Position numbers and translations under genes: made by a program. Positions 45,900-62,885 of a stretch of DNA of 64,000 bases are shown piece by piece (the stretch's first letter is position 1; every line of letters starts with the position of its first letter). Below the pieces are notes generated by a model. The model saw only the letters and a program-made list of their open reading frames with translations, was not told the DNA's origin and searched no databases. The DNA is from Mytilus californianus (Eukaryota), in NCBI RefSeq assembly GCF_021869535.1, contig NW_026262670.1:2418001-2482000 (forward strand), given 5' to 3'.

Positions 45900-46099
45900 A
45901 GTAGTGTCAAAAGGCCGATTCTGCGGCACTTGCCATTTTAAGCACAGATTCAGCATAGGAACCCCAACCCCAAACATAAAATGCAAACGCAATACGTTTC
46001 AATTAGTCTAAGGGTAAAAACAAGAATGTCTTTCAGTTTAGCACAAAACCCAAACACCTTAGAAGGATGTAATCCTAGGGTAAATACAAATATGTCTTT
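45900..46099 (+). repeat. Left terminal inverted repeat (200 bp)
   Basis: Reverse complement of 62686-62885 except cagatt/caaatt and agtcta/aaccta. Confidence 0.95.
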
Positions 46100-49000
46100 T
46101 ACACAAAACCCAAACACCTTAGAAGGATGTAATCCTAGGGTAAATACAAATATGTCTTTTACACAAAATGTCAGAGATACCCCAGCCCCAAATACCTTAG
46201 AAGGAAGCATTCCCCAAATTGAAATAAATAAAGAGATGGCATCCAATAGTGTTGATATGAATATGGATCAGTTCAAAGAGAATGAAGAACTCAAAACTTG
46301 TGGTGCTCCACTAAAAAGAAAGAAGGGGCAGTTTTGTAAGAATAAACCAGGGAAAGATGGGCTTTGCTGGAGACACAGTAAAGAACCACGCCAGCAGGAG
46401 GATACCCAAGTTGTAGGGAATATTGTGGTGAAAACCACCATGAAAGAACTTCGAAAAATCGCAAAGAAGGAGGGTCTTAAGGGATATAGTAGGAAACCCA
46501 AGGGGGAATTGGTTAAGTTAATTGAGACCAATACTGCCCACAAATTTACTCGCGAAGAGGTTTTTACCAAAAAGGAACTGAAGACCATTGCCAAAAGACG
46601 GGGAATTACCAACTATTCCCGACTAGGGAGAGCTGACCTGACTGAACTGGTGAAAAAGAACATTGAAAATGCCCACGTTGAAGAGGAAATCAAAATTGTT
46701 AACCGACGCGATGCATTGAAAGGTGTATTTGGCACAATCACCATTGAACCCTTGAAACAGCATGATATGCTAACGTTTTTTAATGTAAGTCAAAGCACTA
46801 TCGCCAGCACAATTTCAGATGCACTCACCAAAAAGAAGGCCCTAAAAGTGCAATAAGTACTACAGGTGGAGATGGTAAAAACAAACCCAGCGACCGGAGA
46901 AAATATCTACGTCATTCCCCACTTTAGATCAACCCTTACCACCATCACCGAATCCACAGACCTTGAGTTGGAAATAGCATTTATGGTCGAGAAGGTCAAA
47001 GAAAATATGGCTAAATACATGCGTGAAGGTAGTGGGTGGACATTTGGTCATATTGAAAAGCTAGAAATCCACTTAAACAAGTTTAAACCTCTCAAGGGCA
47101 GTTCCTACATAGCATTGCCAAAACCGCTCGCTCTAATGAAAGCTATCATCAATGTGCAGAATACTGATCAGGAATGCTTACGCTGGGCCATTCTTTCAGC
47201 CCTACATCATGAGGAAGTTGACAAAAACTGTACCAAACGGGTGGGTCAGTACAAAAAGTGGGCTGATGAGTTCAATTTTGATGGCATTGAGTTTCCAGTC
47301 TCTCTAAAGGCCATTGACAAATTCGAGAGGCAGAACACCGACTTAAACATTAACGTCTTTGGCTTTGATGGTGTAAAGAAGGGTGAAGATGAAGAAGAGG
47401 ACCTCCAAATATATCCCCTCAGAATATCTAAGAATACAGGTTCGAGACATGTGGATCTTCTGTTCCTGACCAATGAGAGCAAGCAGCATTATTGCTGGAT
47501 TAAGAGCCTATCTCGACTTTTGAGCTGTCAAATCTCAGAGCATGATCATGAACTGTTCTTTTGCCGCAGGTGTTTGTCTCACTTCTCAAGACAGGATATC
47601 CTGGATGAGCATATGGAGTATTGCAGTCAGAAGGATGCAGTAAGGATCGAGATGCCAGAGGAAGGAACCCACATAGCCTTCCATAACCACAAAAAGTTGA
47701 TGAGGGTTCCATTCGTCATTTATGCGGATTTCGAGTGTTTTACGGAGAAGGTCGACACTTGCCAGCCATATCCATCACAGGCCTACACAAAGGCATATCA
47801 ACAACATCGACCATCAGGTTTTTGCTATAGGGTGAAATATGCTCACGGTGATTACAAAGACTCAGTCATCTACTGTGGAGAGGATGCAGCTAAAAAGTTT
47901 GTACAGTGCATGGAGCAGGAAGTTAGGGAGATTGCTAAGCTTTACAAGGAAAACAAACCTATAGAGATGACCGACGCTGATAAGGAGATTTTTGAAGCAA
48001 CCACAAACTGTCACATTTGCGGTGGTGAATTAGCTGGTGACAAGGTTCGCGACCACGATCACCTCACAGGTAAGTATCGCGGCGCAGCACACAACCAGTG
48101 CAACTTGGACTTCCAACTTCCAAGACATGTACCCATTGTTTTCCACAACTTGAGTGGATACGACGCCCATCTTTTTGTGAACGAATTAGGAGTTGGAGAA
48201 GGTAAGATAAACTGCATCCCTAACACCGATGAGAAATACATCAGCTTCTCGAAAGAAGTAGATGGAGCATTGGAGATGAGATTCATAGATTCATACAGGT
48301 TTCTACCGAACTCCCTGGAAACCTTGGCAGGGAATCTTACAAAGGAACAATTCGGGGCAATAAAGAAGTGCTTTGGCGATCGATATGAACTGATGATCAG
48401 GAAGGGAGTATATCCCTATGATTACATGGATGGACCTGCCAAGCTAGAGGAAACACAACTACCACCCAAGGAGGAATTCTTCAGCAAACTCTACGGCACA
48501 CACATCAGCGACGAGGACTATGCACATGCTCAGCAGGTGTTTAAGGAATTTAGGTGTAAGACTTTGCGGGACTACCACAATCTATACCTGGAAAGTGATG
48601 TAGCCATATTGGAGGATATTTTTGAGGACTTCAGGAATATATGTATGGTTAACTATAAACTCGACCCTGCACACTATTTCACATCTCCAGGACTATCCTA
48701 CGATGCAATGCTAAAATGTACAGGAGTGAGACTAGAACTCCTCTCGGACCCTGATATGCTGATGATGTTTGAGAATGCAACCAGAGGAGGTGTCGCCATG
48801 ATCTCTCATCGACATGGCAAGGCTAACAATCCCTACATGAAGAATTTTGATAGCTCCCAGCCAACTAAGTATTTGACCTATCTTGACGCCAACAACCTCT
48901 ACGGATGGGCGATGGTACAATCTCTGCCCACGGGAGACTTTGAGTGGGTAGAGCCAGAGGAGATTGAGGAGATTCTAGAGTACCCCGATGACCATGAATA

Positions 49001-50094
49001 TGGTGCCATAGTGGAGTGTGATTTGGAGTACCCGTAAAAGCTTCATGATGCCCACAATGACTATCCACTAGCTCCAGAGAATGTAGATAAATAAGGTGCG
49101 AAAGCTAGTGCCTCACCTAGGTAAGCGCGAAAAGTATACTCTCCACTACGGAAATCTCAAAATGTACCTGACGATGGGCATGAAACTCACCAAAACACGT
49201 CGGATTATCAGGTTTAGACAATCCCCATGGCTCAAACACTACATCGATCTTAACACCGCTCTCCGCACCAAAGCTAAGACCGATTCTGAGAAAGACTTTT
49301 TCAAACTTATGAATGTCCCAGTTTTCGGAAAGACCATGGAGAACATCCGCAAGAGGGTGGACGTCAAACTAGTCAATAGTGAAAAGCAGGCACTTAAGCT
49401 TGTGGCCAAACCCAACTTCGATCGTCGGGTCGTCTTTACCAACAACTTAGCAGCCGTCCACATGAAAAAGACCAAGCTTAAGTTTGATAAGCCTGTGTAT
49501 TTGGGAGCCTGCATTCTGGACATCTCAAAGACCCTGATGTATAACTTTCACTACGGTTTCATCAGGAAGATGTACGGTGACAACGCCCAGCTGCTCTTTA
49601 CCGACACTGACAGCTTGGCCTATGAGATTAAGACCGAGGACTTTTACAAGGACATTACACCACACGTCCAAGAAAAATTCGATACCTCCAGCTACCCTAC
49701 CGAACATCCTTCAGGCATTCCCACCGGTGTAAACAAAAAGGTAGTTGGAATGTTTAAGGACGAGTGTGGTGGTAAAGTGATGACAGAGTTTGTAGGTCTC
49801 CGGGCAAAGTTATACTCCTACAAGATGAACGACCACACTACCACCAAGAGAGCAAAAGGAGTAACAAAGTCTGTCATCAAACAAAACATCACCTTTGCTG
49901 AGTACAAACAATGCCTAGACACTCAGCTGGAAATATGTAAGCCGATGACCATCATCCGCAGCCGCCTTCACCAGATCTACACCGAGGAAATCAACAAAAT
50001 AGCACTCTCGGCCAAGGATGACAAGCGACATATTCTGGAGGATGGGATCAGTACTCTTGCCCATGGACATTACAAAATCGAAAAGGATATCTAA
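45981..50094 (+). pseudogene. Protein-primed family B DNA polymerase (pPolB) with N-terminal extension and endonuclease VII-like insert
   Basis: ExoI YADFEC, ExoII FHNLSGYD, ExoIII YLESDV, PolA YLDANNLYG, PolB KLMNVPVFGK, PolC FTDTDS; CHIC..RDHDHLTGKYRGAAHNQCN insert. In-frame TAA at 46854 and 49035, frameshift near 49090. Confidence 0.95.
46041..46168 (+). repeat. 60-bp in-frame tandem duplication at the inner edge of the left TIR
   Basis: 46041-46100 and 46101-46160 identical except first base; encodes xQNPNTLEGCNPRVNTNMSF twice. Confidence 0.9.
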
Positions 50095-50124
50095 AGGTCA
50101 CTTTTGATTCATATAAATAAAGTA

Positions 50125-61699: not shown

Positions 61700-61990
61700 T
61701 TAAGAGCCTAAAGAAGATCGTCTTTTCAGGTCCACGCATGCGCACATTGCCAACTTGTAACTTTCCATCAATTTTCGTTTGAACATTTCCCTTTCTTCCT
61801 GCTTCGTTCGTTTCTGTGCAATTTTTTTCCTCTCTTTTTCACATTTCGATATTTTCGCTGATTGCTCAGCAAAGCGCTCGAGTTTTGTCCAGTACTCGTT
61901 CAATTCCTGATCGCTAGGATAAGCGTTGCATAAGTAGTTTCTGAAATCATCCATGATTGTACAAAATACCTTCCAGTCTTCTCCGTTCAT
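61700..61990 (-). CDS. Small helical Polinton protein (96 aa)
   Basis: MNGEDWKVFC..KERKKIAQKR..SLGS*. Confidence 0.55.
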   Translation of the reverse strand: MNGEDWKVFCTIMDDFRNYLCNAYPSDQELNEYWTKLERFAEQSAKISKCEKERKKIAQKRTKQEEREMFKRKLMESYKLAMCACVDLKRRSSLGS

Positions 61991-62330
61991 TTCTGTATAA
62001 TCCAAACAAAACAACGTCACAAAGGCAGTTAGCAACACTGCAAAACGATAACGTCTTAAAGCCCGCGTAAAAAGGACTATTGACGTACTGGCTATACAAT
62101 AAGGGCATTACTAAAATCTTGTGCGTATCAAATGCGCATGCGCCGTAAAAAACGTCACACATCGTTCCGTTACGCTTCACTACACACATCGTTTCACGAT
62201 GTGATCCATTCCGCTTCACTTCATGATGTGCTCCGTTTCAAGCATAAAAAAAAACTTTTCCAATCCGGCAGAAATGTCGGATCGGAAAAATTTTTTGTAC
62301 CCCACCCGGCCCATTATTTTTTTTTTGGAC

Positions 62331-62804
62331 TTAATTTCTCACAAGGTCGTAAGAGAAGTACTCCTGCTTGGTCTTTTTGCTGACTTTAAAGCCTGTACTT
62401 CTCACGAAGGCTCCTACCATGGGTCCTGTCTCTCTGTTCAGTCCACTGCAGGCCCACACCCTATTCGTTTCTCCTTCTCTGTTTTTCAAGGTGAGGATCT
62501 TACTCTTTCCAAACTTACCATCTACTTCCACCACTTCCAGGATTTTATAGATCACACCGGTTGAGAGTTCCTTCCATTTCAGGGTTTCCATGCTCTGATC
62601 CTTTGCCTTTTCCTCGAAAACATTATCGTTCATAAAATCGTTGTCTACGATTTGTGGACTTCTGAGTTCCTCCATCTTTTGTACGAAAGACATATTTGTA
62701 TTTACCCTAGGATTACATCCTTCTAAGGTGTTTGGGTTTTGTGCTAAACTGAAAGACATTCTTGTTTTTACCCTTAGGTTAATTGAAACGTATTGCGTTT
62801 GCAT
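62331..62804 (-). CDS. Beta-rich (OB-fold-like, inferred) protein whose reading frame starts in the right TIR
   Basis: LKWKELSTGVIYKI..KFGKSKILTL..VWACSGL..FVRSTGFKVSKKTKQEYFSYDLV. Confidence 0.65.
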   Translation of the reverse strand: MQTQYVSINLRVKTRMSFSLAQNPNTLEGCNPRVNTNMSFVQKMEELRSPQIVDNDFMNDNVFEEKAKDQSMETLKWKELSTGVIYKILEVVEVDGKFGKSKILTLKNREGETNRVWACSGLNRETGPMVGAFVRSTGFKVSKKTKQEYFSYDLVRN

Positions 62805-62885
62805 TTTATGTTTGGGGTTGGGGTTCCTATGCTGAATTTGTGCTTAAAATGGCAAGTGCCGCAGAATCGGCCTTTTGACACTACT
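62686..62885 (-). repeat. Right terminal inverted repeat (200 bp)
   Basis: Reverse complement of 45900-46099. Confidence 0.95.

What the first reader, a model, noticed from the sequence alone, without database searches (positions are those of the whole stretch)
45900..62885. Complete, young Polinton/adintovirus with the full virion gene set in a mollusc-like genome
It has exact AGTAGT termini, 200-bp TIRs at 98.5% identity, a perfect 6-bp TSD, and about 17 ORFs covering replication, integration, packaging, capsids, protease and candidate entry proteins. All 8 lesions are single-site and repairable: stops at 46854, 49035 and 51879; frameshifts near 49090, 52255, 56030, 57021 and 57980. An infectious ancestor can be reconstructed, and intact sisters may exist. 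Three nonsense changes are roughly what neutral decay at this TIR divergence would give.
Basis: partly seen in the sequence, partly recalled or inferred. Interest (0 to 1): 0.75.

Follow-up and report, generated by a model that had tools for sequence, protein, structure and literature searches.

The report
Young, broken mussel Polinton provirus
This is a recently inserted but already broken copy of a known kind of virus-like transposon (Polinton/adintovirus), probably in a mussel genome; it is ordinary as an element, but a motif repeated at its gene starts and an A-run between two genes may show how this virus group switches on its genes.

Summary
The element is real: AGTAGT/ACTACT ends, 200-bp TIRs with 3 mismatches, a 6-bp TSD, 17-18 ORFs, and all eight listed breaks. 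It is a new member of a described clade; gene content matches the Hydra Alpha adintovirus BK012049, and the nearest named proteins are from Mytilus. Near-identical sisters occur in runs under four organism labels; no intact copy, particle or real expression was shown. Two extra features: (1) TAAATAAATG lies on 8 start codons and follows starts, not stops. It resembles a poxvirus late initiator, but the T(-3) form recurs in only one other host group. (2) The PLA2X-integrase junction is an A-run that is out of frame in 14 of 16 related loci and has no start codon ahead of the integrase's conserved head here, which suggests recoding; in-frame fusions also exist. Reconstruction of an ancestor was referred. 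Interest 0.38.

The parts
45894..45899 (.). Left 6-bp target-site duplication, in the 3' tail of a host LINE
   Evidence: LINE ORF 43518-45836 RVT_1
45900..46099 (+). Left TIR (200 bp, AGTAGT end); holds the pPolB start
45981..50094 (+). Protein-primed DNA polymerase B (PF03175, EndoVII-like insert below cut-off, Rho_N repeats); broken by two stops and one frame change
50125..50376 (+). 83-aa ORF, unassigned
50373..50792 (+). Adenain-like maturation protease, open frame
50793..51269 (+). Fibre/Cah-like coiled-coil protein
   Evidence: tblastn hit in L002; by-eye likeness to BK012049_Cah; weak Pfam only
51270..51320 (.). Hairpin between converging genes
   Evidence: z -4.6; not general in relatives
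51321..52265 (-). rve integrase with C-terminal chromodomain; one stop; no ATG ahead of its conserved head
52245..52265 (-). A-run junction between PLA2X and integrase frames; candidate recoding site or mutation hot-spot
52234..52737 (-). PLA2X (DUF5679 zinc ribbon plus parvovirus-type PLA2), with two GxG motifs
52757..53518 (+). A32/FtsK packaging ATPase, open frame
53529..54005 (+). Cys/His-rich ORF running into a tandem array; unassigned
53921..54080 (.). 22-bp tandem array, 7.3 copies
54104..54943 (+). Conserved Adintoc3-like protein
   Evidence: hits in 62 of 82 loci; by-eye match
54948..55295 (+). Small amphipathic protein (Ploop/cupiennin-like), candidate entry protein
   Evidence: PF08102 below cut-off; by-eye match to BK012049_Ploop
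55303..56588 (+). Double-jelly-roll major capsid protein; one frame change
   Evidence: PF21738 on both pieces
56595..56744 (+). 49-aa ORF, unassigned
56745..57514 (+). Minor capsid protein (penton), inferred; one frame change
   Evidence: fold not confirmed
57519..58101 (+). Adintoc8/pX-like core protein with seven GxG-type motifs; one frame change
58106..58615 (+). Two-TM Slatt-like protein
   Evidence: 27% to L001 homologue; by-eye match
58642..59073 (.). 36-bp tandem array, 12 copies
59168..59548 (-). 126-codon frame without a start codon (spliced exon or further break); DUF3102-like lead only
59679..61626 (-). Nested 5'-truncated LINE (59689-61616) with 10-bp TSD at 59679 and 61617; itself broken
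   Evidence: 28% to the flanking LINE
61700..61990 (-). 96-aa ORF, unassigned
62331..62804 (-). OB-fold protein, likely single-stranded-DNA-binding; starts inside the right TIR
   Evidence: model pLDDT 91; OB/SSB matches at Z 5-6.6 and BFVD E 3e-5; Atlas Phi29-SSB lead 0.87
62686..62885 (-). Right TIR
62886..62891 (.). Right target-site duplication
50366..58108 (+). Eight copies of TAAATAAATG, each on a start codon (50366, 50786, 52750, 54097, 54941, 56738, 57512, 58099); looser variants before 50125, 53529, 55303, 56595 and PLA2X

Best explanation
This is a 17-kb Polinton (Alpha-type adintovirus) provirus with exact ends and a 6-bp target duplication, inserted recently in what is likely a mussel genome, broken at the eight listed sites and carrying a nested LINE, so this copy is likely inert on its own. 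Shown: ends, gene set, breaks, about 99% identical sisters. Inferred from family knowledge: active members excise, replicate as linear DNA by protein priming (pPolB plus the SSB-like protein, both starting in the TIRs), package with the ATPase into MCP/penton particles matured by adenain cleavage at GxG sites, and re-integrate. Inferred here: the structural genes are likely transcribed one by one from an A/T initiator overlapping each ATG (polymerase unknown), and integrase is likely made as a minor PLA2X-integrase fusion by slippage on the A-run, which would load it into the particle as gag-pol does (about even odds).
For: Ends and TSD; domains; breaks and neutral expectation; sisters at 0.6-1.3% difference in long contigs, and 16 of 24 listed runs holding half or more of the words under four organism labels; gene-for-gene likeness to Hydra BK012049. 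Start motif: 8 copies, all on ATGs, shuffle mean 0.07, maximum 1 of 300, 1 copy in 45.9 kb of flank. Junction: 14 of 16 related loci out of frame across an A-run; 895 stand-alone against 130 fused PLA2X clusters; GxG motif just ahead of the junction.
Against: No particle, free DNA or intact copy was observed. Only 45 of 10.3 million RNA records laid, with no start pile-up. In-frame PLA2-integrase fusions are common enough (130 clusters; 6 of 13 members in a close cluster) and one is already annotated (Adinto15303). The Hydra integrase has its own Met. Frames at the junction are mixed (-1, +1, 0) and 1 of 10 junctions has a strong downstream fold. Many related loci are themselves decayed copies from one host group.
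Confidence: 0.7

Rival explanations
1. The family is a helper-dependent, virophage-like parasite: TAAAT(G) is a poxvirus-type late initiator read by the RNA polymerase of a co-infecting large DNA virus, whose slippage on A-runs would also make the integrase fusion.
For: TAAAT(G/A) is the vaccinia late initiator (PMC5294985). T at -3 is a poor translation context (general knowledge). The motif precedes the ATPase, which has no upstream sense gene. In relatives 54 of 62 TAA|ATG starts are not the stop of a long ORF. AATAAA follows 7 of 16 stops, each ahead of a start. PLVs of the mavpol2 clade occur in entomopoxvirus occlusion bodies (PMC11296320). Two coral adintoviruses carry a gene labelled Vilthree (my reading is VLTF3-like). 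No RNA polymerase gene is present.
Against: 60 of the 62 TAA|ATG starts come from one host group of 37 loci; the other 33 loci have AAA|ATG (59 of 94) and a -3 purine in 92 of 94, i.e. an ordinary context. No helper was found or tested. Coral polintovirus genes are expressed with no helper mentioned in the passages read (PMC11131425). The hairpin-end rule failed in relatives.
Confidence: 0.18
2. PLA2X-integrase is simply one fused gene (or integrase has its own start), and the out-of-frame junctions are homopolymer mutations or sequencing errors in dead copies; the break near 52255 is then an ordinary lesion.
For: In-frame fusions in the two closest long hits (83% and 79%); all three frames co-occur inside close families; no conserved stimulatory fold; own Met in Hydra.
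Against: Stand-alone forms outnumber fusions about 7 to 1 by cluster; 14 of 15 listed members of the 2,359-member cluster are the 166-aa stand-alone form; four divergent loci with otherwise open neighbouring genes (L012, L018, L020, L023) share the -1 state.
Confidence: 0.4
3. The start motif is only compact-genome packing: stop codon, polyadenylation signal and an A-rich start context overlap, and host Pol II makes the transcripts, possibly steered by element-encoded factors.
For: The motif contains TAA and AATAAA; in the window most copies abut an upstream stop; A-rich starts are general in relatives; an earlier scan note reports a Polinton with its own TBP-TFIIB pair (unchecked).
Against: It also stands where no gene ends, gene ends without a following start lack AATAAA, and no TBP/TFIIB family was hit by the unassigned ORFs tested.
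Confidence: 0.45
4. The breaks are mostly assembly errors and this copy is coding-intact apart from the LINE.
For: Five of eight breaks are small indels; deep contigs of other runs differ from this copy at 6 of 8 sites.
Against: Three nonsense changes match the neutral expectation, TIRs have diverged by 1.5%, and host-flank LINEs are also decayed. Those contigs are sister copies, not this locus.
Confidence: 0.12

Closest known systems
Hydra adintovirus BK012049 (Alpha PolB, PLA2X-type virion module; PMC11071296 supplement, PMC8502044)
   Same: By eye from the supplement: PolB, Adenain, Cah, Integrase, PLA2X, PacK, Adintoc3, Adintoc8, Ploop, Hexon, Penton, Slatt and an SSB-type gene.
   Different: Its integrase has its own Met; its SSB looks like the DUF2738 type seen in L002, not this small OB fold; it has dUTPase-like and second penton genes. 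No alignment could be run against it.
Mytilus adintovirus BK011005
   Same: Same likely host genus; Polinton with integrase.
   Different: It carries GasderminX, IAP and Adintoc5, i.e. another module type; four window peptides were absent from the held part of that supplement.
Vertebrate Mavericks (PMC8097293)
   Same: (AGT)2//(ACT)2 ends, 6-bp TSD, about 17 kb, same core genes.
   Different: Different gene order and accessory genes; this copy fails their 'intact' definition.
IMG/VR contigs L001 and L002
   Same: 17-kb elements with the same core module; MCP N-half 59% and 45% identical.
   Different: AAA|ATG rather than TAAATAA|ATG starts; other gene order; L002 PLA2X has no adjacent integrase.
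Entomopoxvirus-associated PLVs (PMC11296320); mavirus-type virophages (recalled)
   Same: Small integrating DJR viruses without RNA polymerase; PLA2 and adenain genes.
   Different: Helper association is shown there; none is known here. That paper has no promoter analysis (0 hits for promoter or motif).

Membership tests
Polinton/Maverick | Terminal inverted repeats with (AGT)2//(ACT)2 ends | tested here: met
   definition
Polinton/Maverick | 6-bp target-site duplication | tested here: met
Polinton/Maverick | Protein-primed PolB and rve integrase | tested here: met
   PF03175 E 7e-13, PF00665 E 2e-9; both broken
Polinton/Maverick | Packaging ATPase, adenain protease, DJR major capsid protein | tested here: met
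Polinton/Maverick | Single-jelly-roll minor capsid protein | tested here: inconclusive
   homologues in 18-20 of 82 loci and by-eye match to a labelled Penton; fold pLDDT 33, no PDB hit
Intact (potentially active) Maverick | All core ORFs uninterrupted | tested here: not met
   nested LINE
Alpha adintovirus | pfam03175-class PolB | tested here: met
   definition
Alpha adintovirus | N-terminal OTU-like domain in PolB | not tested
   no profile or fold run on that segment
Alpha adintovirus | Integrase with C-terminal chromodomain | tested here: met
   PF00385 E 2e-9; definition
Alpha adintovirus | PLA2X with a C-terminal pX-like domain | tested here: inconclusive
   PLA2 met; the pX-like segment appears to be a separate ORF, as in BK012049
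Alpha adintovirus | Hexon reciprocally recognised by BLASTP with the Alpha reference | not testable with these tools
   reference seen only as supplement text; by-eye likeness
Helper-dependent virophage/PLV | Promoter motif shared with an identified helper virus | not testable with these tools
   no helper known; resemblance to vaccinia TAAAT only
Helper-dependent virophage/PLV | Co-occurrence with, or induction by, a large DNA virus | not tested
   no suitable data
Programmed -1 ribosomal frameshift | Slippery heptamer in the upstream frame | tested here: met
   present at all 16 related junctions and in the window
Programmed -1 ribosomal frameshift | Downstream stimulatory structure | tested here: not met
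   z below -2 in 1 of 10 junctions (simple folds, no pseudoknots)
Programmed -1 ribosomal frameshift | Downstream ORF consistently in the -1 frame | tested here: inconclusive
   loci: 6 -1, 8 +1, 2 in frame; proteins: 50 -1, 18 +1, 52 uncalled or other of 120

The most novel reading that the evidence does not exclude
Animal Alpha-type Polintons of this lineage are virophage-like satellites of an unknown pox-like or related large DNA virus of marine invertebrates: the helper's slippage-prone RNA polymerase starts each structural gene at TAAAT|G and, by slipping on the A-run, makes a gag-pol-style PLA2X-integrase fusion that is packaged and released by the adenain.
Probability: 0.15. Interest if true: 0.8.

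Novelty: new member of a known kind. Interest (0 to 1): 0.38.

Why it matters
As an element it adds one more young Polinton family, apparently spread at high identity over several related shellfish species. The open question in the field is how animal Polintons express their genes and whether they need a helper virus; virions had not been observed per PMC8097293. The start motif and the A-run junction give two concrete sequence features that 5'-end mapping and cDNA sequencing of natural samples can test. If the helper reading holds, endogenous Polintons could take part in defence against large DNA viruses in farmed bivalves.

Tried and rejected
No host assembly is held, so copy number and intact sisters could not be counted. 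Searches of viral contigs with the ATPase and pPolB found nothing; an exact motif-plus-gene pattern found nothing; CTATAAATAAATG is in 0 of 82 loci. No RNA holder listed; X15 and X17 are only guessed to be RNA and cover the stretch like DNA, so they are not used as expression evidence. Single-sequence penton fold failed, no PDB profile hit. A mimivirus-like hairpin rule for gene ends (recalled) was rejected: 1 of 19 integrase ends in relatives folds strongly. My first reading of the junction as a plain fused gene was dropped. Automatic frame calls from 3-residue tails are unreliable: one search left 74 of 120 ambiguous, and labelled the largest cluster +1 whereas I read its family as -1 by hand, so member-weighted totals are not used. 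In one search I dropped a second, spurious L001 row. Clustering loci at 70% did not separate lineages; the host group was assigned by contig-name prefix. No TBP, TFIIB or VLTF3 family hit in the unassigned ORFs. Earlier-findings look-ups by place, sequence and four word sets gave no matching note.
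Full report
Observation. The element runs 45900-62885, begins AGTAGT, ends ACTACT and is flanked by TATGTC on both sides. The TIRs differ at 3 of 200 positions. The core is 46% GC against 32% in the left flank. It sits in the 3' tail of a host LINE; one contig of run X17 joins left-flank to right-flank sequence, as an empty site or a paralogous LINE tail would. Pfam finds pPolB, rve, chromodomain, PLA2, DUF5679, A32 ATPase and the DJR capsid; a profile of nine protease homologues hits adenain. 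Natural homologues laid on the window by tblastn show 3 in-frame stops and 5 frame changes at the stated places and no others in the ten genes tested.

What was missed. A 1,928-bp 5'-truncated LINE fills 59689-61616 on the minus strand with a 10-bp duplication; it is 28% identical to the flanking LINE and is itself broken. ORF 59168-59548 lacks a start codon. There are 22-bp and 36-bp tandem arrays. The right terminal ORF folds confidently as an OB fold (pLDDT 91, 71 sequences) with SSB-type neighbours at middling scores (best Z 6.6), so it is likely the SSB; SSDBP labels already appear on adintovirus maps (PMC8502044 supplement).

Host and family. No assembly is held. The nearest named PLA2X homologues are Mytilus galloprovincialis proteins at 75-84%. 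Of 24 listed runs, 16 hold half or more of the sampled words, under four organism labels. In three contig runs laid, long pieces differ from this copy by 0.6-1.3% (e.g. 19 of 2,502; 27 of 2,052) and differ at 6 of the 8 break sites; one site is not among the rows shown (597 and 12 rows hidden) and the junction near 52255 shows only a frame-neutral length variant in one run. The breaks therefore look private to this copy, but no listed piece spans the stretch, so an intact sister is not shown. The one raw RNA run gave 45 laid reads of 10.3 million records, with no start pile-up.

Start motif. TAAATAAATG occurs 8 times in the element, each on a start codon, once in 45.9 kb of flank, and at most once in 300 shuffles. 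It follows starts, not stops: it precedes the ATPase, which has no upstream sense gene, and AATAAA is seen after 7 of 16 stops, each followed by a start. In 82 related loci, 182 distinct starts were scored: 62 TAA|ATG and 66 AAA|ATG against 2.7% and 5.5% background, and 54 of the 62 are not the stop of a long ORF. Against generality: 60 of those 62 come from one host group; the other 33 loci show an ordinary A-rich context. TAAAT(G/A) is the vaccinia late initiator (PMC5294985, passages), and PLVs occur in entomopoxvirus occlusion bodies (PMC11296320, passages). I found no paper with this motif in Polintons (20 of 30 listed, 20 of 72, 40 of 239), which is limited evidence. I give the helper reading about 0.18.

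PLA2X-integrase junction. The integrase frame has no ATG ahead of its conserved head or first catalytic Asp. Of 82 loci, 16 gave a scorable junction: 6 in -1, 8 in +1, 2 in frame, all with a slippery A-rich heptamer. In the protein collection 895 clusters are stand-alone length and 130 are longer, mostly fusions. Among the 120 best stand-alone hits 50 read as -1, 18 as +1 and 52 could not be called or were other. Two of 4 members of the closest cluster end with the same tail as this copy, and close families hold all three states. One of 10 junctions has a strong downstream fold. Tolerance of all frames fits polymerase slippage better than a classical ribosomal shift, but a mutation hot-spot in a fused gene remains a strong rival. 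An in-frame PLA2-Integrase is annotated in a supplement, and the Hydra integrase has its own Met (PMC11071296). That paper discusses -1 shifts only for penton and hexon-adenain (section 16); searches for recoding at this junction gave 0 papers and 5 listed of 6, of which I opened two.

Comparison. Gene content matches Hydra BK012049 by eye; the catalogued Mytilus adintovirus BK011005 has another module. Ends, TSD and size match vertebrate Mavericks, for which 134 intact elements are published (PMC8097293, passages). Papers seen: PMC8502044 parts 1-3 of 6, term search and supplement search; PMC11071296 passages, section 16, supplement searches and one supplement part; passages only of 10.1101/2023.08.22.554363, PMC11161782, 10.1101/2024.03.23.586382 (45), PMC12567637, PMC8363768, PMC11131425. 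Both supplements were cut when stored, so unseen maps may already annotate this family or the junction. The replication cycle, Kozak preference, gag-pol analogy, adenain GxG cleavage and the hairpin rule are recalled knowledge.

Verdict. Observation partly confirmed; new member of a known kind; this copy is likely inert. The two expression signals are real sequence patterns with untested mechanisms. Interest 0.38.

Noticed in passing
window 46229-50500 versus 50500-58640: Summed contig depth in run X1 is about 170-270 over pPolB and mostly 340-1960 over the structural module; single contigs show about 160 against 220-500. This may mean more copies share the capsid module than this polymerase (module swaps or deleted copies); the tool warns it is no copy number.
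   Followed up: no
window 45900-46099 and 62686-62885: Both replication genes (pPolB, SSB-like) start inside the TIRs and share their first codons; the left side has an extra 60-bp duplication at 46037-46168.
   Followed up: partly
window 51270-51320, 62240-62330: Strong hairpins after the converging Cah/integrase ends (z -4.6) and after the SSB-like gene (z -3.1); not general in relatives.
   Followed up: yes
window 53921-54080 and 58642-59073: 22-bp and 36-bp tandem arrays flank the plus-strand capsid block; role unexplained.
   Followed up: no
window 59168-59548 and 61700-61990: Two minus-strand frames on either side of the nested LINE; the first has no start codon and follows AG-ending pyrimidine-rich text, so they may be exons of one gene.
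   Followed up: partly
L001 1-16929: Metagenomic relative with perfect inverted ends lacking AGTAGT; possibly a free linear or collapsed assembly.
   Followed up: no
L002 988-1755: DUF2738 (large-DNA-virus SSB-type) gene where the window element has a small OB-fold protein: SSB types appear interchangeable in the clade.
   Followed up: partly
window 1-45899: Host flank holds only decayed retroelement-type ORFs of 130 codons or more; no clear host gene to confirm the taxon.
   Followed up: partly
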